Shown: positions 20,267 to 40,102, counted from the stretch's first letter. The stretch: DNA of 40,145 nucleotides from an uncultured Desulfobulbia bacterium (GCA_964654555.1 CAZZJP010000001.1:1-40145); one strand, 5' to 3'. Notes: generated by a model from the sequence alone, not told the origin. Numbers and translations: made by a program.

Positions 20267-21037
20267 GTGGGCAGAATTATTGTTTTCGCGAACCGTAAAG
20301 GCGGGTGCGGAAAAACCACTACGGCGGTGAATGCTGCGCATGCTTTAACCACCCATGGCCGAGTGCTTCTTATTGATATGGATGCTCAGGCCCACGTCTC
20401 CATCATATTTGGTTCCGCCCCTCACCCCCAAAACACCATCCTTGAGGTTCTTGAAAACAGACTTGCCTTAACAGAGGCTATTTCTCCCAGCCGCATTGCT
20501 GGTCTTGAGCTAATTTACTCTTCGCGTAATCTCGGTGCCTATGAATTAGGGGCCGGGCCTGATGACGAACAGGCGCTTGTGCTGGCTGAGCAGATCATCC
20601 CCGTCCTGTCTCTCTATGATTATATTATTATCGACCCGCCCCCGACTCTGGGGATCTTGATGGTCGCATCTCTTGTCGCTGCCAAGGAGGTGTTTATTCC
20701 AATGCCCATGCATTTTCTGGCCATGGAGGGCCTTGCCGAGATGATGCAGGTTATCTACCGGCTCAATGCCTCATACAATCCCGCCCTGCGCTTAAGCGGC
20801 ATTGTGCCGACATTCTATAATCAGAAAACTAAAATTGCCCGTAAAATCAGCGAGGAAATAAAGGGCAGTTTCGGAGCGGAGATAATGATGCCGGGGATAA
20901 GGAATAATATCACACTGGCCGAGGCTCCGGCCTATAAACAGACGATCTTTGAGTATGCGCCAAAAAGTCATGGGGCGGTTGATTACAGGAAACTGGTTGA
21001 AGAGGGAATTTGTGGAAGGATGAAGACTGAGGGGTGA
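20267..21037 (+). CDS. ParA/Soj-family ATPase heading the chemosensory cluster
   Basis: Deviant Walker A KGGCGKTT, LIDMDAQ, IIDPPP, LAEAP; no parB in the window. Confidence 0.9.
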   Translation: MGRIIVFANRKGGCGKTTTAVNAAHALTTHGRVLLIDMDAQAHVSIIFGSAPHPQNTILEVLENRLALTEAISPSRIAGLELIYSSRNLGAYELGAGPDDEQALVLAEQIIPVLSLYDYIIIDPPPTLGILMVASLVAAKEVFIPMPMHFLAMEGLAEMMQVIYRLNASYNPALRLSGIVPTFYNQKTKIARKISEEIKGSFGAEIMMPGIRNNITLAEAPAYKQTIFEYAPKSHGAVDYRKLVEEGICGRMKTEG

Positions 21038-21077
21038 CCGGGCTTAGGCTATAAATCGGGATCAAAAAGGGATAGAC

Positions 21078-22964
21078 ATGAATAAATTACCGCAAGATAT
21101 TACAATTTTACTGGCTGAGGATGCCAAAACTATGCGCCGGATTGAGGTTAATATCCTTAATTCTCTGGGCTATAAAAATATTATTGAGGCCGATGACGGT
21201 GTGCATGCCAAAAAGCTGCTTCAGAGGGCCGGTGATGTCGACTTGATTATCAGTGACTGGAATATGCCCAATATGAGTGGTTTTGACCTTTTGGCCTGGA
21301 TTCGGAAAAAATCCAAAAAATTTAAAAAGGTACCGTTTATTATGGCCACCGCTCAAGCTGATAAGACCCAGAAGGACAAGGTGATCGAAGCTGGCGGTAC
21401 CTCGGTGGTTCCGAAACCATTTACTCCCGATGAACTTAACCGCAAGATTAACCAGGCTCTGGGCTTTAAAGAGAAGGCCGTCGGAATCAGCGGTGAGCAG
21501 GAAGAAATGATTGACGGCAAGATCAAGCTGCGGGTGGCTCATTTACAGATTACTGACCATCTGCTTTTGGGAATGGTGCGGGAAGATATCCGCGCCGGCC
21601 TTATTAAGCCGGTTAATTTTGTTTTGCAGACGGAACTCATGGGGGGGTGGAATCCAGTGATTGACGCTCTGGAAGAGGGCGAGGTGGACGCGGCTTTTAT
21701 CCTGGCCCCCATTGCTATGGATTTAAACAGTCACGGCTCTCCCATTAAAACAGTACTCATGGCCCACCGGGGCGGCAGTATCATGGTGCGTAACGCCCAT
21801 AATGACTATAAAGAGCCCTATCGTGATTTTTTCAAAAAGAAATCCTGCCTCATTCCCCATAAATTATCCATCCACCATATGCTGAGCCATATATTTTTCA
21901 AAGGAATCGGTCTTAATGCCAGTCTCGACAAGGGGGAAGAGGTGGATGTTAATTTTGAGGTAGTGGCCCCGGTCTCCATGCCGGCCTTCATGGGATCAAA
22001 TCATGATGCCGCCGCCTTCATAGTGGCGGAACCAGTGGGCTCCAAGGCTATTAATAATGGTATTGCCAAGAGGCAGTTTATGACCAGCGAAATCTGGCCG
22101 GAACATCCCTGCTGTGTGGTGGCGGTACGTCAGGAATTTATTGATAACCATCCGGAAACCGTACAGGAATTTATTGATTATCTCGTTAAGGCCGGTAAGG
22201 GCATGGCTGCTGATACAGACAACGCCGCCAGGGTGGGAGTGGAGTTTCTTGATCCCGATAAAAGTATTGGTCTCAAAGAGGCCCTTCTGAAAAAGGTTAT
22301 TGCTGATCCCAATGGCATCCGCTGGGACAGCTTATATCCTTCGGCGGCTGATTTTGAAACTATTCATAAATATATGTCGGAGGAACTCCATATTACTGGT
22401 GAGCTTAATGTTGACCACTTGCTTGATCTCCGCTTTGCCGATAAGGCCTGCTCTGCCGTGGACAAGGTAACCCAGCCGCCCGCTATTCTGGCCTTAGAGG
22501 AAATCACCTCCCTACTCACCCCGGAGGATAAAAAGACTGCTGTCCCGCGGATATCCCTTAAAAAAATGCTTTTTGATAAGGGTATTAATCAGAGTAGCGC
22601 CGCCGCGGCGGAGCAGCTAAGCAAGCTGGCGGCCGATTACAAAGCCCTGTCTGTTGAACATGAAAAATTGCAGAGAAAGGTCTCCAAACAAGAGGAAAAG
22701 CTGTGTAGTTACGAGGAGATGGCGGCTAAACTGTTCAAGGATGGTGTCGCCCGCCTGAAAAATGATGATTTTTTTGAGGCCGCTGGTCTCTTTAACGCGG
22801 TTTTAACTTTGGAACTGGAAAATATGAAGGCCCTTAATAATCTGGCCGTTATTTATAGTGAAATGGATTTTCCAGAAAAGGCCAGAGCAATCCTGAAGAG
22901 GATTTTAGAGATTGAGCCGGATAATAAACTGGCCAGGGAAAATCTTGCAATTTCGGAATTATGA
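21078..22964 (+). CDS. CheY-like receiver + NrtA/CmpA-like (NMT1-type) solute-binding domain + coiled coil/TPR fusion
   Basis: REC: AED, ISDWNMP, ATA, KPF. Binding domain: QITDH, DAAFILAPIA, IPHKLSIHH, WPEHPCCVV. TPR: ALNNLAVIY...ILEIEPDN. No signal peptide. Confidence 0.8.
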   Translation: MNKLPQDITILLAEDAKTMRRIEVNILNSLGYKNIIEADDGVHAKKLLQRAGDVDLIISDWNMPNMSGFDLLAWIRKKSKKFKKVPFIMATAQADKTQKDKVIEAGGTSVVPKPFTPDELNRKINQALGFKEKAVGISGEQEEMIDGKIKLRVAHLQITDHLLLGMVREDIRAGLIKPVNFVLQTELMGGWNPVIDALEEGEVDAAFILAPIAMDLNSHGSPIKTVLMAHRGGSIMVRNAHNDYKEPYRDFFKKKSCLIPHKLSIHHMLSHIFFKGIGLNASLDKGEEVDVNFEVVAPVSMPAFMGSNHDAAAFIVAEPVGSKAINNGIAKRQFMTSEIWPEHPCCVVAVRQEFIDNHPETVQEFIDYLVKAGKGMAADTDNAARVGVEFLDPDKSIGLKEALLKKVIADPNGIRWDSLYPSAADFETIHKYMSEELHITGELNVDHLLDLRFADKACSAVDKVTQPPAILALEEITSLLTPEDKKTAVPRISLKKMLFDKGINQSSAAAAEQLSKLAADYKALSVEHEKLQRKVSKQEEKLCSYEEMAAKLFKDGVARLKNDDFFEAAGLFNAVLTLELENMKALNNLAVIYSEMDFPEKARAILKRILEIEPDNKLARENLAISEL

Positions 22965-23071
22965 TGTTGGAAATTACTGGGATTTTACTAATTATTTCAC
23001 GAAATACCGAAAATGAAAAAAAGTAATCAGATCAATAAAAGAAGCGGCGGAATTTCGAAATCTGAATTTCG
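22949..23071. repeat. Heptamer inverted-repeat element, family A (degenerate)
   Basis: Left AATTTCGGAATTATGA overlaps the stop codon; right AATTTCGAAATCTGAATTTCG lies in the Hsp70 N-terminal extension. Confidence 0.5.
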
Positions 23072-24536
23072 CCCTCTGCGGTCAAAAAGGATTATTGGTA
23101 TAGATCTGGGCACCACCAATTCGCTGCTTTCCTTTATTAAAAACGGTGCCCCTCGGATTATTCCCAACGAACGGGGCAGCCGCACCACGCCCTCCGTGGT
23201 CTGCCTGAAAAAGGATAAGGTAATTGTCGGCGAGATGGCTCGTAATCAGGCGGTATTGAACTCGGAGCTTACCGTGGCTAACGTTAAGCTGGGTATGGGT
23301 ACTAACCGCCGCTTTACCATTAATGGTTATCAATATGTTCCGGAGGAAATATCCGGTTTTATCCTGGCCCATCTACGAAAGATTGCCGAGGACTATCTTG
23401 GCTGCGAGGTGGAAGAGGCCGTTATCACCGTTCCAGCCTATTTTGATGATAACCAGCGTCAGGCTACACTGCGGGCGGCGGCTATGGTCGGGATTCAGGT
23501 GCGAAAGTTATTGAATGAACCAACCGCCGCCGCTCTTACCTATGGCATTAGTCAGGGCGGGAACAGTCATATGCTGGTGATTGATCTTGGCGGCGGTACC
23601 CTGGATATTACCCTCATGGCCTATGAAGATAAGGTCTTTCGGGTCATGGGTGTGGGCGGTTCCACCGCCATTGGCGGTATAAATTTTGACAACGCTCTCA
23701 TTGAACATATCCTGGCCCGTTTTGCCGCTGACTGCCCTTATGATTTACGAAATGATCGCATCGCCTATCAACAGCTGGTAATTCACGCTGAAAAGGTCAA
23801 GATTGATCTCTCTTCCGCCGACAGTACTGCCCTTATGATTCCCTATATAGCGGTAACAGATGACGGTCCTCTGCATTTGAATATGGAGATCAGCCGGGAT
23901 GATTTTAATGCCCTAACCAGTTCGGTTTTAGAAGATATAAAAAGGCATATTATGGATACCTTCGCCCAGTCCGGGGTATCCCCGGACTGGGTTGATTCGG
24001 TAATTATGGTGGGCGGCGCCAGCCGTATTCCTGCGGTGGGTGAACTGGTAGACGAGGTACTCTGTTCTGCCTGCGCCAGGTCGTCCAGCGGCCCGAGATT
24101 AAAGAAAAATATTAATCCTGATGAGGCTGTGGCGCGAGGGGCCGGTATTCTGGCCGGGGTACTGAGTGGCGAGATTGCCGGGGTGGAGTTTCACGATATT
24201 ACGGCCCATAATCTCGGGATTGAAGATGATAAGGGCGATTTTATTAATATAATTCCGGCTGCTTCAGCTTATCCCTGCGAGGTCAGCCGTTTGTTCACCA
24301 CGGTGGTTGATAGTCAGCCCGAGGTAATTATCCATATCATGCAGGATCGCGGTCTGCCGGGGGCGCAGGATTACGTGTCGTTGGGACGTTTCCACCTGAA
24401 GGTAAACCATGGTCGGAAAAAGGGGGAACCCAATATAGATGTAACCTTTGCCATTGACTTGAACGGGGTGCTGACGGTGAGCGCCATAGACTTGGATACC
24501 GCCGAGGGAAAGGATATTACGATTTCGGATTTGTGA
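23013..24536 (+). CDS. Hsp70/DnaK-family protein lacking the alpha-helical lid
   Basis: GIDLGTTNS, TVPAYF, NEPTAAA, DLGGGT, VGGASRIP, NPDEAVA; ends right after the SBD-beta (VTFAIDLNG...ITI). Confidence 0.92.
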   Translation: MKKSNQINKRSGGISKSEFRPLRSKRIIGIDLGTTNSLLSFIKNGAPRIIPNERGSRTTPSVVCLKKDKVIVGEMARNQAVLNSELTVANVKLGMGTNRRFTINGYQYVPEEISGFILAHLRKIAEDYLGCEVEEAVITVPAYFDDNQRQATLRAAAMVGIQVRKLLNEPTAAALTYGISQGGNSHMLVIDLGGGTLDITLMAYEDKVFRVMGVGGSTAIGGINFDNALIEHILARFAADCPYDLRNDRIAYQQLVIHAEKVKIDLSSADSTALMIPYIAVTDDGPLHLNMEISRDDFNALTSSVLEDIKRHIMDTFAQSGVSPDWVDSVIMVGGASRIPAVGELVDEVLCSACARSSSGPRLKKNINPDEAVARGAGILAGVLSGEIAGVEFHDITAHNLGIEDDKGDFINIIPAASAYPCEVSRLFTTVVDSQPEVIIHIMQDRGLPGAQDYVSLGRFHLKVNHGRKKGEPNIDVTFAIDLNGVLTVSAIDLDTAEGKDITISDL

Positions 24537-24706: not shown

Positions 24707-26644
24707 ATGGCAAAGAAATTAGCAAAACCTGATTCATTGGCAACTGGTATTACCAGCAAAGAGGGGGATAACAAAGTTCTGGCTCAAAAACGGGAGCTGG
24801 CTAAAAAGCAGGCTCAGGCCAAGACCCAGGCTCGTACCCTGGCCCGGCAGCAGGCTATTGCTGAACGAATTGCCGTGGCTGTGGAACAGATGGCCGCCTC
24901 TCTTGAGGAGGCTATCGCGGCATCCGAGCAGCTTACCAATAATATGGCAGAGATCGGTCAGAAAGCCGATGGCAATGCCGAAGCGGCCGATAAATCACGT
25001 AGTTCCATTGCGGTTATCAAGGAAAATTCACAGGAAGTCAATAAACACGCGGTCTATTCCGATGACAAATGTACTGAATTACAGCTTCTGGCCCGTACTA
25101 CCGGCAAGGATATCCGCCAGATAATTCTCGGGATCAAGGAGGCGGTGCAGAAAAATGATGAGTCGGCGGTTCTGATTCATCAACTGGAACAATACTCCAA
25201 TGAGATTGGTGAGATTGTCGGGGCCGTGGTGCGGATTGCCGATCAGACCAATCTTCTGGCCTTGAATGCCGCCATTGAGGCCGCCAGGGCCGGAGAACAT
25301 GGCCGTGGTTTTGCCGTAGTGGCCGATGAGGTCAGAAATCTGGCCGAGATTTCCGAGAACTGCGCCCGTGATATCCGCACCGTGGTGGATGAAATTCAGG
25401 AGCAGGTTAAAATGGTGGTAATTAACGTTGAATCGGCCAGTAAGGCCAGCCGGGAGGAGGCGGATAAAAGTGAACTTATAAACGAGGCTCTGGGGAAAAT
25501 TGACAATGGTATTGACGATCTGGTGGAGGCCTCTAAAAGAGTGGCTATATTGTCAACCCAGGCCGTTGAAGGTTCTGATGTCTTTTATCAGGCGGCCGAG
25601 GATATTGCCGCGGCTTCGGCGGAGGCCTCCAGCGCTATTGAGGAATCTATTAAAGGTTTGGAAGAACAGAATAAGGCCTATGTTGAGATGCAGGCGGCCT
25701 CTGATGATCTCACTGAACTGGCCGACAGTTTGAAGAATTCTGTCGATACCCAGAAGTCGGCTGAGGAAATGGCGGCCGCCGCCGAGGAGTTATCGGCCAA
25801 CGTGGAGCAGTCCCTGGCCTCGGCCCGCCAGATTATGACTGCCATAGAGCAGATTGCCGCCGCCGCTGAACAGCAGAAAAAATCGGCCGCCGGCTGTAAG
25901 GTTCAGGGAAAGCAGGTTGAGGAAATCGGGGCAGAAATCGACACCCTGGCCCGGAACGCCGAGACCAGGATTAATGAGCTCCTGGAGATCGTGGTGGAGA
26001 ACAACCAGAACGTCAATAATACGATTGCCAATATCACCAAGGCGGCGGAGGATTCACAACAGTCGGCCAAAAGTATAGGCATGCTGCAGGAGAAGACCAA
26101 CGCCATTGAAAAGATTGTCGATCAGATTGTCAATGTTACCCTGCAGACCAATATGCTGGCCGTAAACGGCTCCATTGAGGCGGCCAGGGCTGGTGAGTTT
26201 GGCCGGGGATTTTCAGTAGTGGCCGGAGATATCCGCACCCTGGCTGATGATTCATCAGAAAATGCTAGTAAGATCAAGGATATGGTGCGCCAGATGCAGA
26301 ACCAGATAATTATGGTCAGTTCCGATATAGAGGGGGTTGGCAAGAGCGCTGCCGAGGAAGCGGAGAAGGCTAAAATATCGGCAGCTGGTTTGACCAGAAT
26401 TGATAATGAATCCCGTGTGGTTTTGGAGGGGGTTGAAAAAATCGTGGCCAAAACCGCCGAGGCTATGACCTCTCTGGCGGAGGTTGGCAAGGAGGTCGAG
26501 GTTATTACTGAGGGAGTGGAAGATGCGGCCAACGCCTGCGAAGAGGCCTCAACCTCTTCAGAGCAAACCACCAAAGGCATGGAGAATATTGCCGAGGCCA
26601 TTGAGGATATCGCCAGCCAGGCGGATGAGATGCAGAGTATGTGA
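24707..26644 (+). CDS. Soluble methyl-accepting chemotaxis protein with two signalling domains (DosM-like)
   Basis: Two hairpin tips: [31 protein letters not shown] and [31 protein letters not shown]; no TM segment or sensor domain. Confidence 0.92.
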
Positions 26645-26762: not shown

Positions 26763-28712
26763 ATGTCTGAACATATAGAAAACACCCAAAAATCCATTAA
26801 TGCCACCGAGGGCCAGTTTGTTGTTTTCGCTCTTGGCGAGGAGGAATTTGGAGTGGATATTCATCAGGTAAAGGAGATTGTCCGTATGCCGGACTTGACC
26901 GCGGTGCCTAAGAGCCCTGATTATGTGGCGGGAATCTGCAATCTGCGTGGTAAGGTGTTGCCGGCTCTGGATAGTCGTAATCGTTTTGGTCTAAAGAAAC
27001 GGGAGGTGACGGAAGACAGCCGCCTGCTGGTGGTGGAGACGGATGGTAATGCTACCGGCCTTATTGTTGATGGTCTGCGTGAGGTTATGCATATTCGTGA
27101 CGAGCAGGTCGCGCCGCCCCCGGCCGTATGTAAGGGGATTGACCGGGGATTTTTATCTGGGGTGGTAAAAAAAGATGACGGCAAGCGTCTGGTGCTGATC
27201 CTTAAGCTGGCGGAGGTCTTAAAAATAGAGGATGAGGAAACGGCCGCTGTCCAGGATGTCGGCGGCCGGGCTGGAGCCGGGTCGGTATCTGAAACAGTTA
27301 AAGAAGAGGTAGTGGACGATGAGCAACTGGTCTCATTTCATATCGCCGATGAGGAGTACGCCTTTAATATTGACAGTGTCCGGGAGATACTGCGGGTATC
27401 TGAAATTACCGAGGTGCCCAATGTTCCGGCCTACATCAAGGGGGTAATCACGGTTCGTGAACAGCTTATTCCCATCATTGATCTGCGCTCACTGCTCGGA
27501 ATTGATGAATTGATTGCCGGTAATATCAATGAGCTGGAGATGATTGTCAAGGAGCATAGGCAATGGATTGTCGATCTTGAACAAGCCCTTGAAGACGGTG
27601 AACAATTCCCTGGGACTCTGGATCCGGTTCAATGCGCCTTTGGCCGCTGGCTGGTGGTTAACCCTGCCCTGGTTGAGAATGAACTCTTTCGAGAGCTAAG
27701 GCCCCGGCATACCGTTTTCCATGAGCTTGGCCATGAACTTCTTGACTTGGCAGCGGCAGATAAGGAGACGGCACTGACTCGATTTAAGGCCGAACTTGTC
27801 CCCCTGGGGAAGGAGATAATAGATAGTTTGGAATGTCTCAAGGTGGATATAAGCGCTATTATTAAAAATAACCAACGGATCATGGTGGTGGAGAATGGTA
27901 CTTTGTTTATGGGCTTTTTGGTGGATTCGGTGAAAGAGGTTCTACGGCTGCCAAAGGCCTTGATTGATGCTCCGCCCTGGAATGTTTCCTCCGGACATCG
28001 GGAGGTGGCGGGGGTAGCCAAGATTGATGAGGGCAAACGTTTAATTATGATAATGGATGAAAAAAACCTGATTGGTGAAAAGGAGTCCGTGATGCTGGAT
28101 GAGATTAAACAGAAGAAAGAGCAGGACAATCCGGACCAGTCCCAAACTCTGGCTGAGAAATCTCTGGTTGAGGAGCAGTTGGTAACCTTCTTTATCGGTG
28201 AGGAGGAATACGGGGTTAAGATTATGCAGGTACAGGAGATAAACCGCTTGGAGGAGATTACCTCCGTTCCCAAGGCTCCGGAGTTTATTGACGGGGTAAC
28301 CAATCTGCGCGGCAATGTCATTCCGGTAATGAATATAAGGAAACTCTTTGGTCGCGAGGAGAGAAAAAAAGATGATCGCACCAGGATTGTCATTGTTGAT
28401 ATCGCTGGGAAAAAGACCGGCCTTAGAGTTGACCGGGTCAATGAGGTGCTGCGCATCCCAAAGAGTGATATTGACGATACCCCTCCCATTGTTGCTGGTT
28501 CTGATGCCGCCCGTTTCATGGAGGGAGTATGTAAGCTGGATGGCGGCCGCCGTATGGTGATGCTGATTAATGTTCAGCGGATTCTCGGTACTGATGAGCT
28601 GGAAACCTTTAACGAGATGGACGGTAAGAAGCCGCCGCTCAAGAGGGCGGGGAAGGTAGCTGGCAAGGCGAAAAAAGCGGTTGGAAAGAAGAAGATGAAA
28701 ATCGCGGAATGA
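26763..28712 (+). CDS. cheW: Triple-domain CheW with a CZB domain inserted in CheW-2 and a Lys-rich tail
   Basis: Three modules begin QFVVF/QLVSF/QLVTF...EE(F/Y) with NLRG/TVRE; insert EHRQW...CAFGRW...RHTVFH. Confidence 0.92.
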   Translation: MSEHIENTQKSINATEGQFVVFALGEEEFGVDIHQVKEIVRMPDLTAVPKSPDYVAGICNLRGKVLPALDSRNRFGLKKREVTEDSRLLVVETDGNATGLIVDGLREVMHIRDEQVAPPPAVCKGIDRGFLSGVVKKDDGKRLVLILKLAEVLKIEDEETAAVQDVGGRAGAGSVSETVKEEVVDDEQLVSFHIADEEYAFNIDSVREILRVSEITEVPNVPAYIKGVITVREQLIPIIDLRSLLGIDELIAGNINELEMIVKEHRQWIVDLEQALEDGEQFPGTLDPVQCAFGRWLVVNPALVENELFRELRPRHTVFHELGHELLDLAAADKETALTRFKAELVPLGKEIIDSLECLKVDISAIIKNNQRIMVVENGTLFMGFLVDSVKEVLRLPKALIDAPPWNVSSGHREVAGVAKIDEGKRLIMIMDEKNLIGEKESVMLDEIKQKKEQDNPDQSQTLAEKSLVEEQLVTFFIGEEEYGVKIMQVQEINRLEEITSVPKAPEFIDGVTNLRGNVIPVMNIRKLFGREERKKDDRTRIVIVDIAGKKTGLRVDRVNEVLRIPKSDIDDTPPIVAGSDAARFMEGVCKLDGGRRMVMLINVQRILGTDELETFNEMDGKKPPLKRAGKVAGKAKKAVGKKKMKIAE

Positions 28713-30850: not shown

Positions 30851-30867
30851 TTTATCCTTCATCCTTT
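30839..30867. repeat. Truncated family-B heptamer element
   Basis: AAGGATAA-ttatt-TTATCCTTCATCCTTT where the pseudo-cheA homology ends. Confidence 0.6.
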
Positions 30868-30883: not shown

Positions 30884-31133
30884 ATGAATTTTTATTAGTT
30901 GAAGATGACTATGTATCTGCCATGGCCTTGGTTAATATCATGTCTCCTTACGGGGAATGCCGGATGGCGGGCCAACGGCCGGGAGGCGGTAACGGCCTTT
31001 AAAGAGGCCCTGGACATGGGTAAACCCTTTGATGCCGGTTATGGACGGTCAGGACGAGGCCTTTTTGAATAAGCCTCTTGAGGTGGATGAACTGAAGGCG
31101 TATTTGAAAAAATTAGGGATTTTGGAATTCTGA
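30884..31133 (+). pseudogene. Eroded single-domain response regulator
   Basis: Fragments in shifting frames: FLLVEDDY...SPYGEC, ANGREAVTAFKEAL...KPFD, MPVMDGQ, AFLNKP...LKKLGI; the phosphoacceptor strand is deleted; not in the ORF track. Confidence 0.8.
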
Positions 31134-31180
31134 TTTTGGTATGCGGCCGGTGGAATGGCAATTCCGAAATAAAAAAACCG
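31116..31180. repeat. Heptamer inverted-repeat element, family A
   Basis: GATTTTG GAATTCT GATTTTG GTATGCG ... GCAATTCCGAAAT (13-mer identical to the 28.76 kb copy). Confidence 0.7.
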
Positions 31181-31189
31181 GAGAAGGAC

Positions 31190-33203: not shown

Positions 33204-33560
33204 ATGAAAAAGGTGCTTGTGGTGGATGATTCAAGATTCGTGAGAAATTTTCACACTAATCTTCTGAAGGCGGCTGGTTTGCAGGCGGATAAGGCCTCCG
33301 ATGGTGTTGAGGCCCTGGAGAAGGCCACGGCGGTTAAATATGATCTTATTCTCTCTGATATAAATATGCCTAATATGGACGGTATTGTCTTTACCGAAAA
33401 ATACCGCCAAAATGATGATGAGACGCCAATTGTGATTATCTCTACTCAGGCCGAGGCTGCCAATAAGGAAAAGGCCATCAGCGCCGGGGCCAATCTTTAT
33501 ATTGTGAAGCCGGTTAAACCAAACGCCCTGGTATTACATATTAAGATGCTTCTTGGTTGA
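33204..33560 (+). CDS. cheY: CheY-like single-domain response regulator
   Basis: VVDDS, LSDINMP, IST, VKP; between cheR and cheA. Confidence 0.9.
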   Translation: MKKVLVVDDSRFVRNFHTNLLKAAGLQADKASDGVEALEKATAVKYDLILSDINMPNMDGIVFTEKYRQNDDETPIVIISTQAEAANKEKAISAGANLYIVKPVKPNALVLHIKMLLG

Positions 33561-33602: not shown

Positions 33603-36248
33603 ATGAATAACCAACAATTAAAATCAGATTTTCTGCAAGAGGCCCGCGAACTTCTCGACGATGTGACTGACGATGTTTTAAAGGCCGAGGCCGAGCCGGA
33701 TAATGAGGAAATAATCAACGCTGTCTTCCGAGGGATTCATTCCTTTAAGGGGAGTGCCGGTACCATTGGGGCCGAGCCGCTGGTAAAGTTCGCCCATGGC
33801 CTGGAGGGGGTGCTGGATGCCCTGCGTAATCTTGAATTTAGCTTAGAACCGGAAATTGTTGATACCATTCTGGCTGCCAACGATCATCTTATCTCCATGC
33901 TGGACGCCTTTGAGTCGGAAGACGATATGCCGGATGATTCTGTCCTCAGCGCCCGGCTCCAGAGTTTTTTAAAACCAGCCGCCGGGGATGAGCTGGAAAC
34001 CGCCCCTCAGGCCCGTAAAAAGCCACTGTTGGCCCCGCCGCCGGAGGCGGTTGAACGGCCCGCTGACGATGAAGGGGCGGACTCCCCCATCATTCCCGTT
34101 ATAGAGGCGGAGGATATTGAGGAGTTCATGGTTGATGCCGTGGAGCGTTTAGATAATCTGGCCCGTGATGTGGAGGCCTACGAGAAAGAGGGCGGTAGTA
34201 AGATATTAAACGATATTTTTCGTGATATTCACACCATTAAGGGTGACGCCGCCTATCTGCAGTTGGAGAAGACTGCCTCCTTCGCCCATCTTTTTGAGAG
34301 TTTGCTTAGTCGTTTGCGGGACGGTAAGATCAGCCGCGGGCCCGAGGTATGTGATCTGCTTATCCGCGGGGTTGACGCTCTGCGGGAGATAATTGACCGC
34401 CTTGGCAGGGGTGAAATGGTGGAATCATTACCACCGCTGAGTGTGGAACTGCGTGAATTTTGCGCCGACGGCAGTCCCGCTTCGGCATTTCCGGCAGCCG
34501 GTGGCAGCCCCGGTGATCTTCTTCAGGCTCTGCCCGACGATATGCGGGAGGTCTTTCTGGATCAGGTTGTGCAGCAAGGCCTGATTCTTGCCTCTCATGC
34601 TGTGCCGGCCTTGGAGGATAAGGGACGTCTCATAGTTAAACGGGCCTTGAAAGGGCTTAAAACAGCCGCTTCATTTGCCGATATTGTCACCTTTACCGTC
34701 CTTGTCGAAAAGGGATTGGCGGCCTTGGATGGTGAAGACGAGTCTCTGCAGGCGGCAGTTAAGGAAATATGCAGTTTTATTGATGGTCTGGCGGGCGGTA
34801 GTAAGCCGCTTGGTGAAATATTGGTGGAGGATGGCGAGGTCAGTAAAGAGGATGTTGATGAGGCCGTCAGGAGTCAGAGGCCGGTGGGTGAGATTCTGGT
34901 GGCCCGTGGCAAGGTCAGTAAGGACGATGTGGAGAGGGCTTTAAAGAGTCAGAAACCGGTGGGCGAGATTCTGGTGGAGCATGGTAAGGTCAAGCCGCAT
35001 AGGGTTAAAGATGCCTTGAAAAGGCAGGAACTAATGGCGGTGGCTAATCAGCTTAAACCTGCTGCCTTTGGTGGCCGGGAAACAAACACTATGCGGGTAA
35101 ATGAGGAGAAGATTGAGAATTTTGCCAATATGATCGGAGAACTGCTTATTTCCCGTAATACCTTTGAGTATATTCTTGATGAATTATTTGAGAACCGCCG
35201 CCCGGCGGCGGATTGTATCCATTTACTGCGGGATGAACTGCATGGCTTTTCTCGGCTGGTAAATGATATGCACCACGGCATTATGGCCATGCGGATGATT
35301 CCAGTGGGCGGCATATTCCAGAAATTCAACCGGGTAGTGCGGGATATATCGAGGCAGCAGCATAAGGAAATCCAGTTGATCATTCAAGGGGAGAACACCG
35401 AGATTGATAAAAAAGTGGCAGACCACCTGGCGGAGCCGCTCATTCATTTAATCAGGAATTCCTGCGATCACGGCATTGAGTCACGGGAGGAGCGGCTGGC
35501 AGCCGACAAACCTGAGCAGGGTACTATTCTGCTGTCCGCCAGCCATGAGGGTAGTAGTCTGGTGATTAAGATCAGCGATGATGGCCGGGGTATTGATCGT
35601 CATCTCCTCTACGAGAAGGCCGTCAGGCGCGGGATGACCGCAGTATCTGAAGAAAAGATCAGCTTGGCGGAGCTGATTTTTATGCCTGGACTTTCTTCTA
35701 AGGAGAACGCCACTGATCTTTCCGGACGCGGGGTGGGCATGGACGTGGTGCATAACACCGTTACCTCTTTAAAGGGTAGTGTCACCGTTTTGTCGGAGGA
35801 GGGTGAGGGCACTGAAATTGTCCTATCTCTGCCCATGAGCTTAGGCATATCCACCATGCTGCTTGTGGAAACCGGCGGTACTGCCTACGCCATTCCCTTT
35901 GAGCATGTAATTGAAGCTATGAAAATCAAGCCGGAAATGCTTCATGGCAGCAGAGATGATCTGATGTTCAGCTATCGCGGCCAGGTTATAGTGCTTGATT
36001 CTCTATCCAATCTGTTAAGCGGCACCCCGCTGAATAATAAAATTCCCGGTGCTGCCGAAATATCCGTGGTGATTATCGAGGCCAGGGGCCGCCGGGTCGG
36101 AATTATCGTGGACTGTTTTGTCCGGATTATGGAACTGGCCATCAAGCCCATGCCATCATCATTGGCGGCAATGGAGGCGGTGAGCGGCGTCAGTATAATG
36201 GGAGATGGGAAGTTGATTCTAACTTTGAACACGGAAAAACTAATTTAA
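33603..36248 (+). CDS. cheA: CheA histidine kinase with two Hpt domains, a degenerate third and three MshEN-like repeats
   Basis: FRGIHSFKG, FRDIHTIKG; three GEILVxxG repeats; RNSCDHG, DDGRG, SGRGVGMDVV; C-terminal CheW-like domain. Confidence 0.96.
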   Translation: MNNQQLKSDFLQEARELLDDVTDDVLKAEAEPDNEEIINAVFRGIHSFKGSAGTIGAEPLVKFAHGLEGVLDALRNLEFSLEPEIVDTILAANDHLISMLDAFESEDDMPDDSVLSARLQSFLKPAAGDELETAPQARKKPLLAPPPEAVERPADDEGADSPIIPVIEAEDIEEFMVDAVERLDNLARDVEAYEKEGGSKILNDIFRDIHTIKGDAAYLQLEKTASFAHLFESLLSRLRDGKISRGPEVCDLLIRGVDALREIIDRLGRGEMVESLPPLSVELREFCADGSPASAFPAAGGSPGDLLQALPDDMREVFLDQVVQQGLILASHAVPALEDKGRLIVKRALKGLKTAASFADIVTFTVLVEKGLAALDGEDESLQAAVKEICSFIDGLAGGSKPLGEILVEDGEVSKEDVDEAVRSQRPVGEILVARGKVSKDDVERALKSQKPVGEILVEHGKVKPHRVKDALKRQELMAVANQLKPAAFGGRETNTMRVNEEKIENFANMIGELLISRNTFEYILDELFENRRPAADCIHLLRDELHGFSRLVNDMHHGIMAMRMIPVGGIFQKFNRVVRDISRQQHKEIQLIIQGENTEIDKKVADHLAEPLIHLIRNSCDHGIESREERLAADKPEQGTILLSASHEGSSLVIKISDDGRGIDRHLLYEKAVRRGMTAVSEEKISLAELIFMPGLSSKENATDLSGRGVGMDVVHNTVTSLKGSVTVLSEEGEGTEIVLSLPMSLGISTMLLVETGGTAYAIPFEHVIEAMKIKPEMLHGSRDDLMFSYRGQVIVLDSLSNLLSGTPLNNKIPGAAEISVVIIEARGRRVGIIVDCFVRIMELAIKPMPSSLAAMEAVSGVSIMGDGKLILTLNTEKLI

Positions 36249-36315: not shown

Positions 36316-36735
36316 ATGCAGAAAAAGGACTTTAAAATAATGGTGGTGGACGATGAGGTGGATATCGCCCAGGGGATGGCGGAGAATCTGGAGGTGATCA
36401 CCGGTCATAGTTTTGATTTTTTCTCTGATCCTTACCTTGCTCTGCAGGCCTTTAAGAACAAAAATTATAATTTGGTGCTGACGGATATCAGTATGCCCAA
36501 TATTGATGGTTTTGAGGTGATGAAGCGCATGCGGGCCCGTCGGCCAACCACCTTTTTTATCGTCATAACCGCTCATAAAACAATTGAGATGGTTACCCGA
36601 AGTATGCGTCTTGGGGCCTCCTATATATTTTATAAACCGGTTGACCTGGCGGAATTAGAGAGCGCTATTGAAACGCTTGTCGGCCGTTATTTGTATTGGA
36701 TTGGTAAAATAGAAGAGTTGAGGGGGACAGAATGA
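36316..36735 (+). CDS. Single-domain response regulator
   Basis: VVDDE, LTDISMP, ITA, YKP; overlaps the next gene (ATGA). Confidence 0.9.
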   Translation: MQKKDFKIMVVDDEVDIAQGMAENLEVITGHSFDFFSDPYLALQAFKNKNYNLVLTDISMPNIDGFEVMKRMRARRPTTFFIVITAHKTIEMVTRSMRLGASYIFYKPVDLAELESAIETLVGRYLYWIGKIEELRGTE

Positions 36736-38843
36736 GCTCTTTTATAAGTAAGGAAATAGTTGAGGATTTTATTCAGGAGGCCCTGACCTATATTGACGAG
36801 GCCAGGGAGCAGATCAGCGATGACGGCTGTGAACCGGCTGGAGTGAACGGGGTATTTCGCTGCCTGCATACCTTGAAGGGGACGAGCGGTTTCCTGCAGC
36901 TTGAGGAGTTATCCCGCTTTGTACACCGTTTTGAGGACTTTGTCCGTGACAAGCAGGAGATTGGCTCCGGGCTGAACAGCCGGGAGGGCAAAAAGGTTGT
37001 TGAGGGCCTGGATCTTCTGGAGACGGCGGTAACCAAGGCCGATAGTCCAGAGATTATGGCTGCTGCCGAGTATGAGGAATTTTTAACCACTCTCCATGCC
37101 TTGGCCTTTGCTAAGGCTGGTTATATGCAGCTTGACGCCCTGGTCGGCCAGTTGAAGGGGCTTCTGGGTGATGACGGCGGTCAAAAGTTTCCACCGGACG
37201 CCTTTACTCCGGCCATTGACGCCATAAAATTTTTGATAAACAAGATTATCCGGCAACAGAAGCGCGTTCTGCTGCCAGTTGACTATAAGGCCATAGACAA
37301 GATTGTACTTAAAGGAAAAGATATAACCGCAGAGATTAAATTGCAGCTTACGGCCCTGGAAGAAGTTGCCATGCATGGTAAAGCCGCCTTTGGTAGTATC
37401 GATTTTACGGAGCTGGTGCGCGGCGAGAAGCTATTGCGGGAGAATTTGAGTCATGGCAGGGATATGTTGGGGTGGCAGGTTATTTTAGATGTCTGCGAGG
37501 ACTCGGATGAGGTGGTTGACGAGGCCTTCAGGCATCTGTGGATAGAAGGGGTGGGTAAAGAGGCTGAAATTACCATGTCCCAATCCGCGGCGGAGGCGGG
37601 AGCTAAAAAAGACGGCAGGGGCCAGGCTGCGGCCGCTGATGCCGGTGTTGGTGCTCCTAAGGAGGAATTCTTGCGGGTTAAAGGTTCGGATTTGCAGGAA
37701 CTTGCCGTCAGCTCGGGTAACCTGGTAGCCAATCGTAATAATCTGGAAAATATCTTTCAGGACTTAAATCAGTATTTGCCGTCCCTCTATAAACGTCATT
37801 TGAAGGATTCATACGCCGAACTTGATCAGTCGGTAAATATGCTTGAACGCCGGGTATCCGCCTTAAACAACAAGCAGCTTAAAGATGTTCTGGGGCAGAT
37901 GCCTTCCATTGTTCAGCGCTTGGCTCATGATCTGGGCAAGGACATTAAGCTTACCATCAGCGGTGAGCAGATTGAAATTCCCAGAGGCTTGGTGAAGGCC
38001 CTGAAAGACCCCTTGGTACACATTGTTCGTAACTCTTGCGATCATGGCATTGAGCCTCTGGAGGAGAGGCAGGCGGCGGGTAAGCCTGGGGTGGGAAAAC
38101 TGATTATTGCCGCGGAACGTGATGATGAGCGTTTGACCATGACCATTGAGGATGACGGCCATGGCCTCGACCCTGTGATTATCCGTCGTAAGGCTGTGGA
38201 AAAGGGGATTATCTCGGACGCTGATAATTTGACTGATGAGGAATGTCAGGCTCTGATCTTTGAGGCCGGGTTCTCGACCAATGAGGAGGTTTCCACGGTC
38301 TCCGGTCGCGGGGTGGGTATGGATGTGGTCAAAAACGCCATTGAGCCGCGCGGCGGTACCATCAAACTTGACTCCACCTTGGGCCATGGCACTCGTATCC
38401 AGCTTATTGTCCCTTTAAACGCTGGTAACAGCACCCGTGATGTTCTGCTGGTGCAGATAGCTGATCAAGTGTTCGGGATTGATTACCACTGTCTCGTGGA
38501 AATTTTAAAAAGAGATATAGTGGATGACCACGGTTTTAAAAGGGATAGTTTTGTTAACTATCGTGATACTCTGATTCCCATGGTTGATATGGCCTCTCTC
38601 CTGACCAGGGCCTGTGGAGATGACTGCCTGAACAAATTTAGCCAGGTGCTGGTGGTAGAGGATGAGCAGAAGAGACGAATGTGCTTTGGGGTGCATGGCA
38701 TAAAGCATAAGGTGAAGGTGGTGGTGAATGGTTTTGAACATGATTTCCTAAAGGATAATACCATTTTCCAAGGCTCGGCGGTGCTTGGTGCCGGGCAGCC
38801 ATGTCTGGTATTGAACTTCAAAGATGTGGGAAAATATCTTTGA
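36732..38843 (+). CDS. cheA: Second, divergent CheA histidine kinase
   Basis: FRCLHTLKG, RNSCDHG, EDDGHG, SGRGVGMDVV, CheW-like C-terminus. Confidence 0.93.
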   Translation: MSSFISKEIVEDFIQEALTYIDEAREQISDDGCEPAGVNGVFRCLHTLKGTSGFLQLEELSRFVHRFEDFVRDKQEIGSGLNSREGKKVVEGLDLLETAVTKADSPEIMAAAEYEEFLTTLHALAFAKAGYMQLDALVGQLKGLLGDDGGQKFPPDAFTPAIDAIKFLINKIIRQQKRVLLPVDYKAIDKIVLKGKDITAEIKLQLTALEEVAMHGKAAFGSIDFTELVRGEKLLRENLSHGRDMLGWQVILDVCEDSDEVVDEAFRHLWIEGVGKEAEITMSQSAAEAGAKKDGRGQAAAADAGVGAPKEEFLRVKGSDLQELAVSSGNLVANRNNLENIFQDLNQYLPSLYKRHLKDSYAELDQSVNMLERRVSALNNKQLKDVLGQMPSIVQRLAHDLGKDIKLTISGEQIEIPRGLVKALKDPLVHIVRNSCDHGIEPLEERQAAGKPGVGKLIIAAERDDERLTMTIEDDGHGLDPVIIRRKAVEKGIISDADNLTDEECQALIFEAGFSTNEEVSTVSGRGVGMDVVKNAIEPRGGTIKLDSTLGHGTRIQLIVPLNAGNSTRDVLLVQIADQVFGIDYHCLVEILKRDIVDDHGFKRDSFVNYRDTLIPMVDMASLLTRACGDDCLNKFSQVLVVEDEQKRRMCFGVHGIKHKVKVVVNGFEHDFLKDNTIFQGSAVLGAGQPCLVLNFKDVGKYL

Positions 38844-38900
38844 AAGGATGAAGGCTGGAAAAACACACCGTAGCTTCAGCTTTTCATCCTTCAGCCTTTA
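38841..38900. repeat. Heptamer inverted-repeat element, family B
   Basis: TGA-AAGGATG AAGGCTG GAAAAACACACCGTAGC TTCAGCT TTTCATCC TTCAGCC TTTA. Confidence 0.8.
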
Positions 38901-38914
38901 AATATGGTGTTAAT

Positions 38915-40102
38915 GTGAAAAAAGAATGTCTTGAAGGTCTGAGTCTCAAGGCGGAGGCGGAAGGCTCGGCATACCAGATTCTTGTTGTTGACGATGAGGT
39001 AGGCCAGCGTTTGCTGTTGCGGGGTATTCTGGAGGAAAATGGTTATTGTCGGACAACGGCAGCCTCATCAGGGGAGGAGGCCCTGAAAATTATAGAGGCT
39101 GGCTCTGTTGATCTGCTGATTACCGACATAACTATGCCCGGCATGGACGGTCTTACTCTCATTACCGAGGCTCGCAGGCTCTGTGATGATTTTATTACCC
39201 TGGTGGTTACCGGCGCCGATGACAAGGAGACTCCTATTGCCGCTCTTAATGCCGGGGCCTTCGGTTATATGCAGAAGCCGATAGTTTTAGATGATGTTCT
39301 TTATCACACCCATCGGGCTTTGGAATATCTTGAGATGAGGCGTCTGATCGCCATGCAGGAGGAGGCTAATCTCCGTCAGACCTTGCTGGCCCATGGCGGC
39401 CGGATGGCAGCCCTCGGTGAGATGGCGGCTGCCATGGCCCACGAAATTAATCAGCCTTTGAATATTATGTCTATCGTGGTGCAGGGCTGGGAAATACTGG
39501 CAGCAAGAGGGCGCCTGGATATAGATAAGGTGCTAAAGGATGTGGACAAGCTGCGTGGTAATATAGAGCGGATCAGCGGTCTCATTGATCACGTCCGCCG
39601 TCTTGGGCGTCAGAGCCGGGATTTGATGGAGATCTACCCTTCAGAGGTTATCTGTCAGGCCCTGGACCTTTGTCATGTGCAGCTCAAAAAGCATAATATT
39701 GATCTGCTGGTTGAGGTTGACCCTGATCTCCCCGCCGTTATGGGGGCAGCAAATGAGCTGGAACAGGTAATTATGAATTTAGTGGCTAATGCCCGTTACG
39801 CCATCGAGGAACGAGTCAGTAATGAGGATATCAGAGGCTGGATTGAGGTCAGGGCTGCTTGTATTGACGGGCAAATTGAAATTATTATTAAAGATAATGG
39901 CGGCGGCCTGCCGGTTGTCACGGCCCGCAAGGCCTTTGAGGCATTTTTCAGCACCAAACCTGTGGGTGTGGGTACGGGTCTGGGTCTGAGCATCAGTAAG
40001 GAGATAATTGAGAGGTTCAAGGGCACAATTACCTTGCGCAACCAGCCGGGTGAAGGGGCGGAGTTTGTGATTGAGATTGAGGGGTGTTGCTTGCGGACTT
40101 AG
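38915..40102 (+). CDS. Cytoplasmic hybrid kinase: receiver + HisKA + HATPase (NtrB-like)
   Basis: VVDDE, ITDITMP, QKP; H-box AHEINQP, NLVANA, DNGGG, FFSTK, GTGLGL; start uncertain. Confidence 0.92.
   Translation: MKKECLEGLSLKAEAEGSAYQILVVDDEVGQRLLLRGILEENGYCRTTAASSGEEALKIIEAGSVDLLITDITMPGMDGLTLITEARRLCDDFITLVVTGADDKETPIAALNAGAFGYMQKPIVLDDVLYHTHRALEYLEMRRLIAMQEEANLRQTLLAHGGRMAALGEMAAAMAHEINQPLNIMSIVVQGWEILAARGRLDIDKVLKDVDKLRGNIERISGLIDHVRRLGRQSRDLMEIYPSEVICQALDLCHVQLKKHNIDLLVEVDPDLPAVMGAANELEQVIMNLVANARYAIEERVSNEDIRGWIEVRAACIDGQIEIIIKDNGGGLPVVTARKAFEAFFSTKPVGVGTGLGLSISKEIIERFKGTITLRNQPGEGAEFVIEIEGCCLRT

What the first reader, a model, noticed from the sequence alone, without database searches (positions are those of the whole stretch)
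20267..40102. All-cytoplasmic DosM/F9-type chemosensory system with its own ParA, Hsp70 and distributed ligand inputs
Seen: about 20 kb of co-directional genes with no obvious TM protein, and an MCP with no sensor domain. Known: the order double-domain MCP, multi-CheW, cheB, cheR, cheY, cheA resembles Vibrio cholerae cluster I (class F9), which forms cytoplasmic sandwich arrays. Seen here in addition: an upstream ParA / REC-NrtA-TPR / lid-less Hsp70 trio, a CZB domain inside CheW, MshEN-like repeats inside CheA, a second CheA and a REC-kinase. Inference: signals (oxidant or Zn, an oxyanion, c-di-GMP) may enter through the scaffold, kinase and a receiver fusion rather than the receptor. A dedicated chaperone and ATPase may assemble and position the array, and output may go to a two-component relay rather than only the motor.
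Basis: partly seen in the sequence, partly recalled or inferred. Interest (0 to 1): 0.85.

Follow-up and report, generated by a model that had tools for sequence, protein, structure and literature searches.

The report
Chemoreceptor array with positioning-chaperone cassette
This is a known type of cytoplasmic chemoreceptor gene cluster (class F9) headed by three genes I could not find described in print (a ParA ATPase, a partner protein ending in TPR repeats, and an Hsp70 that lacks its lid), which recur together in many distantly related bacteria and likely position and assemble the array, while a predicted metal-binding sensor fused to the partner protein would feed signals to a receptor that has no sensor of its own.

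Summary
The core (DosM, triple CheW, cheB, HEAT, cheR, cheY, cheA) is a known F9 cluster: DosM tip spacing equals two published F9 references.

New in print, though this scan noted it before on another genome (e1-4882304), is the upstream cassette. The lidless Hsp70 forms its own clade. 38 of 42 distinct metagenomic members lie just upstream of DosM; the other 4 end at a contig edge. It keeps all ATPase residues, has lost the lid and J-domain contacts, and has no J-domain neighbour (0 of 42).

The middle gene's conserved part is a small TPR adaptor with a ParB-type peptide (exact in 10 of 37 relatives, degenerate here). ParA plus adaptor also occur without Hsp70 (3 genomes).

The REC-'NrtA' module is a Cys-Cys/His, probably metal-binding, domain usually fused to CheW and swapped here onto the adaptor. 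A 99% complete relative has no other soluble receptor, which supports sensing through scaffolds.

Corrections: a third cheA-cheY pair is a real pseudogene; the MshEN-like repeats are degenerate; CheW-CZB and CheA-MshEN fusions are known; the gene run continues to a membrane kinase. No binding or function was shown.

The parts
20267..21037 (+). Orphan ParA-family ATPase (256 aa) with intact deviant Walker A; 31% identical to the genome's own chromosomal ParA on contig C7
21078..21470 (+). CheY-like receiver domain (Asp60 intact) of the REC-SBP-adaptor protein
21510..22470 (+). Cytoplasmic substrate-binding-protein domain (NMT1_2/NrtA-CmpA fold) with invariant H155, D160, H161, H230, H261, H266, E318, H343, C345, C346; closest solved sequence is 3UN6 (Zn-bound)
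22527..22964 (+). Adaptor part: degenerate ParB-type peptide (about residues 489-500), coiled coil and TPR repeats; a stand-alone gene of about 100-150 aa in most relatives
23013..24536 (+). Lidless Hsp70 (507 aa) of a DosM-linked clade; ATPase residues intact, lid absent, allosteric and J-domain contact residues changed
24707..26644 (+). DosM: soluble chemoreceptor with two signalling tips 300 residues apart and no sensor domain
26763..28712 (+). CheW3 with a CZB (3His/1Cys) domain inserted in the second CheW domain
28797..29864 (+). CheB methylesterase (REC plus catalytic motifs intact)
29970..30860 (+). Pseudogene of a third cheA (stop at 30219-30221, deletions near 30263 and 30860, frameshifts); intact 563-583 aa in three same-genus genomes
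30886..31130 (+). Pseudogene of a receiver (cheY-like) gene, frameshifted and internally deleted; intact 133 aa in G001 and G002
31136..32278 (+). HEAT-repeat protein, the standard gene between cheB and cheR of F9 clusters (true start probably near 31190)
32268..33101 (+). CheR methyltransferase
33204..33560 (+). CheY-type single receiver
33603..36248 (+). CheA1: two HPt domains (both His intact), three degenerate MshEN-like repeats (residues 402-475), P3-P4-P5
36316..36735 (+). Single receiver that travels with CheA2
36732..38843 (+). CheA2: divergent, catalytically intact CheA of a 17-member family found almost only in DosM-bearing genomes
38915..40102 (+). Soluble REC-histidine kinase (LvrB-like architecture, below the NCBIfam cut-off)

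Best explanation
The locus is an F9-class chemosensory cluster whose sensorless double-tipped receptor DosM and triple CheW likely form a two-layer cytoplasmic array, and whose upstream ParA, ParB-peptide/TPR adaptor and lidless Hsp70 likely act together to position and assemble that array. Inferred steps: (1) The adaptor's N-terminal peptide binds ParA, and its TPR end holds the array, as ParP does for ParC and TlpT for PpfA. Because ParA plus adaptor also occur without Hsp70, the TPR target is probably the array itself, for example the conserved N-terminal tail of DosM. (2) The Hsp70 keeps its ATPase and peptide groove but has lost the lid and J-domain contacts, so it would be a single-client clamp or assembly factor for the array, not a general foldase. 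(3) No other soluble receptor was found in the 99% complete relative, so signals would enter through plug-in thiolate-metal sensors: CZB in CheW3 (in DosM in relatives) and a REC-linked Cys2His substrate-binding domain that has moved from its usual CheW anchor onto the adaptor. (4) Output would run through CheA1/CheY and the CheA2-receiver-kinase block towards a downstream HD-GYP phosphodiesterase more than to the flagellar motor, which has its own systems. Steps 1-4 are inferred from conservation and fusions; none was shown experimentally.
For: F9 core: tips 300 residues apart and 149-150 from the C-terminus, as in Azospirillum WP_149198667.1 and Sphaerotilus WP_149505510.1, both listed as F9 in the S6 table of PMC9321776. 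Hsp70 clade: 57 rows, SH-aLRT 100. Of 42 distinct locus-derived members, 41 have the adaptor directly upstream, 35 have ParA and 38 have DosM; the misses lie at contig ends except one unclear ParA case (L054). None of the 12 other Hsp70s caught by the same pattern has adaptor or DosM. The 42 fall into 22 clusters at 70% identity, with locus GC 0.29-0.68. J-domain gene nearby: 0 of 42 clade loci, 11 of 12 others. D8, K70, E171, D194, T199, D201 are kept in 82 of 82; a median of 9.5 residues follows E. coli position 507 against about 131 in DnaK; K155, E217, D326, L390, L392, L397, E444, R445 are changed (roles recalled). Peptide: LG[RK]G[LI] starts 10 of 37 adaptors; it occurs in the first 30 residues of 1 of 1954 ORFs of this genome (its ParB) and 6 of 797 locus ORFs (all adaptors). 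Sensor swap: of the top 120 relatives of the REC-SBP protein, 82 end in CheW, 15 in the adaptor and 23 in neither; the adaptor fusion clade (100) is nested among CheW forms, with a second, separate TPR-type pairing beside ParA in L056 and L101. DosM is the only soluble MCP of 14 in G001. CZB lies in DosM in G008, G028, G545 and G565. CheA2: 7 of 8 other genomes that have it also have DosM, against 11 of 400 phylum genomes.
Against: All of it is comparative; there are no expression or binding data. The window's own peptide is degenerate and internal (16 of 37 adaptors are degenerate), and a profile of all adaptors ranked the genome's ParB only 6th of 1793. Most F9 clusters lack the cassette: of 13 DosM loci in 400 phylum genomes, 1 has the full trio, 3 have ParA plus adaptor only, 7 have none and 2 are cut, so arrays evidently form without it. 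Cassette and DosM N-terminal motif follow the DosM tree, so their match is not independent evidence. By fold alone NrtA (Z 36.5), 3UN6 (36.0) and the CmpC regulatory domain (35.8) tie, so an anion ligand is not excluded. The CheA tree does not settle F9 membership (AU p = 0.001 against one clade as I first defined it). The MshEN-like repeats fail the relaxed motif and also occur in a non-F9 CheA of this genome. One cheA-cheY pair has decayed, and DosM was not found in 4 of 7 same-genus genomes (63-95% complete), so parts of the system are dispensable. V. cholerae F9 arrays need a second soluble receptor (PMC7534058), which is missing here, so the array may differ or may recruit membrane receptors.
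Confidence: 0.55

Rival explanations
1. The Hsp70 is a signalling ATPase rather than an assembly or positioning factor. [quoted passage not shown] ParA and adaptor position the array independently.
For: ParA plus adaptor occur without Hsp70 in G315, G381 and G271, which hold only DnaK. Allosteric residues are rewired rather than lost at random. StkA precedent (PMC4319316). The receptor has no sensor.
Against: The Hsp70 gene sits between adaptor and dosM in most loci (34 of 42 adjacent to dosM) and was never seen without the adaptor where sequence was available. StkA is not encoded in a che operon in the passages read, and I did not test homology to StkA.
Confidence: 0.17
2. ParA and adaptor tether the array to a pole or membrane landmark (ParC/ParP-like) or bring it next to the membrane arrays, so that the 13 transmembrane MCPs supply the real inputs. 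The internal sensor domains only modulate.
For: 11 TM MCPs in this genome and 13 in G001. No soluble partner receptor to complete DosM trimers. The ParC/ParP precedent. A dCache membrane kinase lies downstream in the same run.
Against: Published F9 arrays are purely cytoplasmic (PMC7534058, PMC9321776). The genome has several other CheA/CheW sets for its TM receptors. CZB and REC-SBP were each recruited to this cluster more than once.
Confidence: 0.15
3. It is an ordinary, horizontally moving F9 cluster. The upstream trio is a separately regulated passenger with its own function, and the sensor fusions are neutral domain shuffling in a decaying locus.
For: F9 clusters move horizontally (PMC9321776). 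7 of 13 phylum DosM loci have no cassette. One pseudogene pair. A 170-bp gap before dosM holds the best sigma70-like site of the region.
Against: The clade Hsp70 was not seen away from DosM where sequence allowed (38 of 38 with enough downstream DNA), across several gene orders. The sigma70-like site is not conserved in G001, and the scan count was at chance level (32 against 27.2 +/- 4.3). Trio proteins are 76-91% conserved with G001, with intact active sites.
Confidence: 0.1

Closest known systems
F9 chemosensory class (Vibrio cholerae cluster I; Azospirillum oryzae and Sphaerotilus clusters of the S6 table of PMC9321776)
   Same: DosM with two tips 300 residues apart, CheW3, order dosM-cheW3-cheB-HEAT-cheR-cheY-cheA, no TM protein; 35-39% DosM identity to the two references.
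   Different: Upstream ParA-adaptor-Hsp70 cassette (absent from both references), CZB inside CheW3, two-HPt CheA with MshEN-like repeats, extra CheA2 block, and no soluble partner receptor in a 99% complete relative.
ParC/ParP (Vibrio) and PpfA/TlpT (Rhodobacter sphaeroides) array-positioning systems
   Same: An orphan ParA in a che operon with a partner that carries an N-terminal ParA-binding segment and a cargo-binding part (ParA role from PMC11407121 and PMC9178275; ParP and TlpT details partly recalled).
   Different: The partner is a ParB-type LGRGL peptide on a TPR domain, not a CheW-like domain or the receptor's own tail; a dedicated Hsp70 is added; described examples serve F6 membrane arrays or the Rhodobacter cytoplasmic cluster, not F9.
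DnaK/Hsp70 family; Myxococcus xanthus StkA
   Same: Actin-like NBD with all catalytic residues and an SBD-beta groove; StkA is an Hsp70 acting genetically upstream of the Dif chemosensory pathway (PMC4319316).
   Different: No lid, altered linker (IEFH for VLLL) and J-domain surface, no dnaJ neighbour, strict linkage to DosM. Homology to StkA was not tested.
Cys-Cys substrate-binding proteins (S. aureus 3UN6, SaoX, clade B CODH-linked SBPs) and cytoplasmic NrtC/CmpC regulatory domains
   Same: NrtA/CmpA fold used in the cytoplasm; shared His and Cys-Cys pocket with 3UN6, predicted by others to bind Zn or another metal through two Cys and one or two His (PMC13592312).
   Different: Fused to a CheY-like receiver and to CheW or the ParA adaptor rather than exported or fused to an ABC ATPase; ligand unknown for the whole subfamily.
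CheW-CZB and CheA-MshEN fusions
   Same: Both architectures are listed in print (PMC8262984: 1.4% of CZB proteins; PMC5013675).
   Different: Here CZB is inserted inside the middle domain of an F9 CheW3 and alternates with insertion into DosM; the MshEN-like repeats are degenerate.

Membership tests
F9 chemosensory class | DosM: chemoreceptor with two tandem signalling domains and no sensor | tested here: met
   Two MCPsignal stretches; tips at 196 and 496, 300 apart, as in both published references; no TM segment.
F9 chemosensory class | Concatenated triple CheW (CheW3) | tested here: met
   Four Pfam stretches = three CheW domains, the second split by CZB.
F9 chemosensory class | Gene order DosM-W3-B-(HEAT)-R-Y-A | tested here: met
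   Same as the S6 table order and the two reference loci, with a pseudogene pair inserted after cheB.
F9 chemosensory class | CheA scores best with the MiST F9 model; MCP scores as 44H | not testable with these tools
   The MiST/heptad models are not among the tools.
F9 chemosensory class | CheA groups with F9 CheAs in a tree (proxy for the class model) | tested here: inconclusive
   CheA1 lies on the side of the two F9 references (95/90); three non-F9 CheAs form their own 100/99 branch; one clade of all DosM-operon CheAs was rejected (AU p = 0.001) when the reverse-strand CheA of L103 was counted out. Only three clear outgroups.
F9 chemosensory class | Double-layer cytoplasmic array | not testable with these tools
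   Needs cryo-ET.
V. cholerae cluster I array composition (not a class-defining feature) | A second soluble chemoreceptor to complete DosM trimers | tested here: not met
   13 of the 14 MCP genes of G001 (99% complete) have two predicted TM segments; DosM is the only soluble one.
ParA/Soj-type positioning ATPase | Deviant Walker A (KGGxGKT) with signature lysine | tested here: met
   KGGCGKT; best PDB matches are ParA/Soj, E 3e-40.
ParA/Soj-type positioning ATPase | Partner with a ParB-type N-terminal basic peptide | tested here: inconclusive
   Exact motif in 10 of 37 adaptors, near motif in 11, degenerate in 16 including the window's.
ParA/Soj-type positioning ATPase | C-terminal basic residues for non-specific DNA binding | tested here: inconclusive
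   Basic residues lie at or one place beside the Soj positions in the alignments, but differ among members (positions recalled).
DnaK (canonical Hsp70) | NBD catalytic residues | tested here: met
   82 of 82.
DnaK (canonical Hsp70) | Alpha-helical lid after SBD-beta | tested here: not met
   Median 9.5 residues (0-48) after E. coli position 507, against 106-147 in 32 DnaKs; below all NCBIfam DnaK and HscA cut-offs.
DnaK (canonical Hsp70) | Hydrophobic linker, J-domain contact residues, dnaJ neighbour | tested here: not met
   L390, L392, E217, D326 changed; J-domain gene in 0 of 42 loci against 11 of 12 controls, though many loci are short.
NrtA/CmpA nitrate-bicarbonate binding proteins | Cluster fold | tested here: met
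   Z 36.5, rmsd 2.2, 312 aligned to 2G29.
NrtA/CmpA nitrate-bicarbonate binding proteins | Pocket lysine of the HPxK motif | tested here: not met
   HPCC invariant in 104 of 104 where the CmpC domain has HPGK (the lysine's role is recalled).
MshEN c-di-GMP receptor | NCBIfam NF053729 cut-off | tested here: met
   63.8 bits against 38.
MshEN c-di-GMP receptor | Two 24-residue RLGxxhhxxGhhxxxxLxxxLxxQ motifs with a 5-residue spacer | tested here: not met
   Pro for Arg, a charged residue after the second Gly, 1-residue spacers; 0 of 3 repeats match the relaxed motif of PMC5013675.
CZB domain | 3His/1Cys core and CX(L/F)GXW motif | tested here: met
   All present.

The most novel reading that the evidence does not exclude
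A receptor-free chemosensory organelle: DosM alone scaffolds a cytoplasmic array that is partitioned over the nucleoid by a ParA, through a ParB-peptide/TPR adaptor, and built or remodelled by a J-domain-independent lidless Hsp70 with one client. Its senses are interchangeable thiolate-metal modules (CZB, Cys2His SBP) plugged into the receptor, the CheW scaffold or even the positioning adaptor, so that sensing can steer where the array sits. The cassette may be ancestral to F9, the V. cholerae type having lost it.
Probability: 0.3. Interest if true: 0.85.

Novelty: new variant of a known kind. Interest (0 to 1): 0.63.

Why it matters
The function, inputs and assembly of F9 arrays are open questions (PMC7534058, PMC9321776). 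This subclass names candidate parts for each: a positioning ATPase with a testable peptide, a dedicated Hsp70, and defined sensor domains in a genome with no soluble partner receptor. A lidless Hsp70 that has dropped J-domain coupling yet kept its ATPase would be a natural experiment on Hsp70 allostery and, to my searches, the first Hsp70 family tied to a chemoreceptor operon. The REC-SBP-CheW family (82 of the top 120 hits) is itself a common, apparently undescribed chemosensory input protein of sulfur-cycling bacteria, and points to a ligand for the orphan 3UN6-type binding proteins.

Tried and rejected
Complex prediction of Hsp70 with the adaptor TPR gave no answer (score 0.00, controls not folded); it is neither support nor evidence against binding. 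No RNA holder was listed among sequencing runs, so co-transcription could not be examined. The promoter/terminator scan was at chance level, and the best sigma70-like site (24554) is not conserved in G001. The CheA trees did not give a clean class call. The fold of CheA2 matched CheA domains; its middle region (about residues 130-290) was barely tested, so I make no claim on it. The protein Atlas returned nothing. The primary DosM paper PMC5027440 is not held. My strict CZB pattern missed divergent CZBs in other CheW3 proteins (0 of 26), so CZB counts there rest on BLAST and a looser motif. The single-protein DosM search and the 1e-120 phylum search miss DosM::CZB forms, so those counts are lower bounds. 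The Hsp70 phylum search scored only three candidates per genome and used a cut-off that can miss divergent members. Rejected: 'pseudogene is an assembly artefact' (contigs of runs from three studies cross the stop and the first deletion with no difference); 'truncated DnaK' (separate clade with a fixed end); 'REC-NMT1 is the conserved partner' (most relatives have the bare adaptor); my early note that the fusion is genus-specific (it is wider); 'TPR exists to bind the Hsp70' as the sole role (adaptor occurs without Hsp70).

Full report
SOURCE. The window is G000:C1:1-40145, a 69.5% complete assembly of 2.04 Mb. The closest named record by DosM that is not a MAG (L020, 91% identity) is titled Desulfobacterota bacterium M19. 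Runs holding the DNA are listed as hydrothermal vent metagenome or metagenome. The genome has FliG, an flhF-flhG-fliA-cheY block, at least three other che gene sets (C53, C143, C8), further CheA genes on C224 and C43, and 12 other MCP genes.

OBSERVATION. None of the 13 intact proteins has a TM-strength segment, while 11 of the 12 other MCPs have two. Catalytic motifs of CheB, CheR, both CheAs and all five receivers are intact. Between cheB and the HEAT gene lies a broken cheA-cheY pair: a stop at 30219-30221, deletions near 30263, 30860 and 31045, and frameshifts. It is intact in G001, G002 and G005. Contigs of four runs from three studies match the window across the stop and first deletion with no other letter (one run may be the source sample). 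The co-directional run continues beyond the window across a 100-N gap (contiguous in G001) with a GAF-PAS hybrid kinase, a REC-GAF-PAS protein, a two-TM dCache hybrid kinase and a REC-HD-GYP protein.

CORE = F9. PMC9321776 defines F9 by DosM and CheW3, and its S6 table gives the usual order DosM W3 B. R Y A. Two clusters of that table, fetched from plasmids, show that the dot is a HEAT gene and that no ParA or Hsp70 lies upstream. Their DosMs and the window's all have tips 300 residues apart, as do 28 of 29 distinct DosMs in the metagenome loci (one has 301). The CheA tree is inconclusive, and MiST models were not available.

THE HSP70. A protein search gave about 87 relatives, 484-575 aa where complete, that score above canonical DnaKs of about 600-650 aa. 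Source names include Desulfonema limicola, Desulfamplus, Syntrophomonadaceae and Thermotoga; L023 is Ca. Aminicenantes. Against E. coli DnaK, 82 of 82 keep the catalytic residues, the lid is absent, and linker, allosteric and J-domain contact positions differ; the groove residues I401, F426, V436, I438 are mostly kept while the arch becomes acidic (residue roles are recalled). A motif scan of metagenomes found 94 stretches, of which 80 were listed with DNA and 14 were not examined. 74 of 80 had an Hsp70 ORF at the match. After dropping fragments under 440 aa and duplicates, 54 went into a tree: 42 in one clade (SH-aLRT 100) and 12 outside. In the clade, 41 of 42 have the adaptor upstream, 35 ParA and 38 DosM (34 adjacent); the misses are at contig ends except L054. 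Outside it, 0 of 12 have adaptor or DosM, but 11 of 12 have a J-domain gene, against 0 of 42 inside. The cassette keeps its internal order in at least three arrangements of the cluster. These rows are related (34 clusters at 90%, 22 at 70%), so the counts are not independent trials.

THE ADAPTOR. In most loci the middle gene is a 100-150 aa protein: a short N-terminal peptide, a variable coiled coil and TPR repeats. The peptide reads LG[RK]G[LI] in 10 of 37, LGxG[LI] in 11, and is degenerate in 16, including the window. The exact motif opens only 1 of 1954 ORFs of this genome, its chromosomal ParB, and 6 of 797 locus ORFs, all adaptors. A mixed profile was a weaker test: ParB ranked 6th of 1793. 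ParB N-termini are known to stimulate ParA (PMC9178275). I saw the cassette, before looking up earlier notes; the word 'adaptor' comes from note e1-4882304, which reports the same cassette on another genome.

REVERSE TEST. Among 400 phylum genomes of at least 90% completeness, 11 have DosM at E <= 1e-120 (13 loci): 1 full trio, 3 ParA plus adaptor without Hsp70, 7 with no cassette, 2 cut at the contig end. G315, G381 and G271 hold only one Hsp70, of DnaK length. So the parts nest: DosM, then ParA plus adaptor, then Hsp70. In the DosM tree the cassette-less forms, with both published references, make one clade (100/100, 10 rows; L153 lies apart), while cassette forms spread over the deeper branches (midpoint root only). 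This allows, but does not show, an ancestral cassette. Cassette DosMs share an N-terminal K-L-x-(R/K)-P...TG(I/L) motif (25 of 29), a candidate docking site confounded by ancestry.

THE SENSORS. The REC-NMT1 module has 928 relatives at E <= 1e-30. Of the top 120, 82 end in CheW, 15 in the adaptor and 23 in neither. This genome has a REC-SBP-CheW paralogue beside a hemerythrin, a stand-alone cytoplasmic copy, and an exported copy in an ABC operon. The adaptor fusion is one clade nested among CheW forms; L056 and L101 carry a separate REC-SBP-TPR gene beside parA. A module that swaps CheW for the adaptor as its C-terminal partner suggests that both deliver it to the array (inference). The pocket has invariant His and Cys-Cys residues in 104 of 104. 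The best sequence and Foldseek match is 3UN6, a Zn-bound S. aureus protein; by VIA-align NrtA, 3UN6 and the CmpC domain tie. Papers call 3UN6-like proteins metal-binding with unknown ligand (PMC6344411, PMC13592312) and note that Cys-Cys motifs are rare in SBPs (bioRxiv 10.1101/2022.07.06.499078). CZB is complete in CheW3 here and in G001, G002, G315, G351 and G381, but sits between the tips of DosM in G008, G028, G545 and G565. In G001, DosM is the only soluble MCP of 14, although V. cholerae arrays need a second soluble receptor (PMC7534058). The MshEN-like repeats pass NCBIfam but fail the published relaxed motif, and occur also in the genome's C224 CheA; c-di-GMP input is possible, not likely shown.

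CHEA2 BLOCK. CheA2 belongs to a family of 17 proteins. Of 200 order genomes, 8 carry it, and 7 of those have DosM. It lies in or beside the DosM cluster in G001, G002, G008, G028 and G351, always after a receiver. With the downstream kinases and HD-GYP protein this suggests a phosphorelay or c-di-GMP output (inference).

MECHANISM AND ODDS. F9 array 0.9; ParA-adaptor positioning 0.7; REC-SBP and CZB as inputs 0.6; Hsp70 as dedicated assembly clamp 0.5; non-motor output 0.55. Shown: genes, domains, conserved residues, synteny, fusions, pseudogene. Inferred: every interaction and function.

LITERATURE SEEN. Passages only: PMC9321776 (plus its S6 table in full), PMC7534058, PMC5013675, PMC8262984, PMC11407121, PMC4319316, PMC13592312, PMC6344411, PMC9178275, bioRxiv 10.1101/2022.07.06.499078 and 10.64898/2026.05.11.724241. 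Not seen: Briegel 2016 (not held) and Wuichet and Zhulin 2010 (known only through citing papers); their text or supplements, and MiST, could list ParA or Hsp70 as F9 auxiliary genes. Searches found no paper describing the cassette or the REC-SBP-CheW family; the library lacks most subscription journals. The S6 table shows three unnamed genes before dosM in two Syntrophomonadaceae, probably this cassette (unchecked).

VERDICT. Real, and a new variant of a known kind. The strictly linked lidless Hsp70, the ParB-type adaptor and the anchor-swapping metal sensor make open questions on F9 arrays directly testable. Interest 0.63.

Noticed in passing
L002:1870-4207 (G000:C129): REC-SBP-CheW paralogue followed by a hemerythrin gene, with a J-domain gene nearby on the other strand; this fusion is the commonest form of the family (82 of top 120 hits) and I found no paper on it.
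   Followed up: partly
L011:2115-6502 (G000:C10) and L008:2705-3643 (G000:C39): An exported, twin-arginine-type SBP with the same HPCC motif in an ABC operon next to a REC-HD-GYP gene, and a stand-alone cytoplasmic copy; importer and sensors may share one ligand.
   Followed up: partly
L007:641-1453 (G000:C177): A single CheW with a CZB domain inserted, outside any F9 cluster.
   Followed up: no
L038, L063, L067, L073, L075, L097, L109, L110: A different Hsp70 group (562-602 aa where complete, outside the clade) lies just downstream of flhF-flhG-fliA-fapA genes, usually with a J-domain gene: a second motility-linked Hsp70 family.
   Followed up: partly
L164:12831-15095 (G008), L171, L172, L173: DosM with a CZB domain inserted between the tips (spacing 402-403 instead of 300); PMC9321776 knew only two CZB-bearing DosMs.
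   Followed up: partly
L001:480-10499 (G000:C1 40279-50298, beyond the window): GAF-PAS hybrid kinase, REC-GAF-PAS-PAS protein, two-TM dCache hybrid kinase and REC-HD-GYP continue the run and are 79-89% conserved in G001.
   Followed up: partly
L107:7755-8579, L101, L049, L078: Other fusions and inserts at the adaptor position: REC-adaptor (274 aa), extra TPR-like genes, and a CheW-REC plus kinase pair between hsp70 and dosM.
   Followed up: no
window 29700-31200: Three of four laid runs also hold a sister strain about 90% alike over parts of this stretch, at similar depth; whether its third cheA is intact was not examined.
   Followed up: no
window 24540-24700 and other intergenic gaps: Short repeated AT-rich motifs of the type TCCGCAAT recur in the gaps, and the scaffold gap after 40145 is flanked by them; not analysed.
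   Followed up: no
window 5513-5893 and 18214-18729: A stand-alone PilZ gene and a stand-alone receiver lie among the housekeeping genes upstream; no link to the cluster tested.
   Followed up: no
L015 (G026:C151): A cassette-less F9 cluster with a longer ParA (328 aa) downstream of cheA: an independent ParA recruitment.
   Followed up: no
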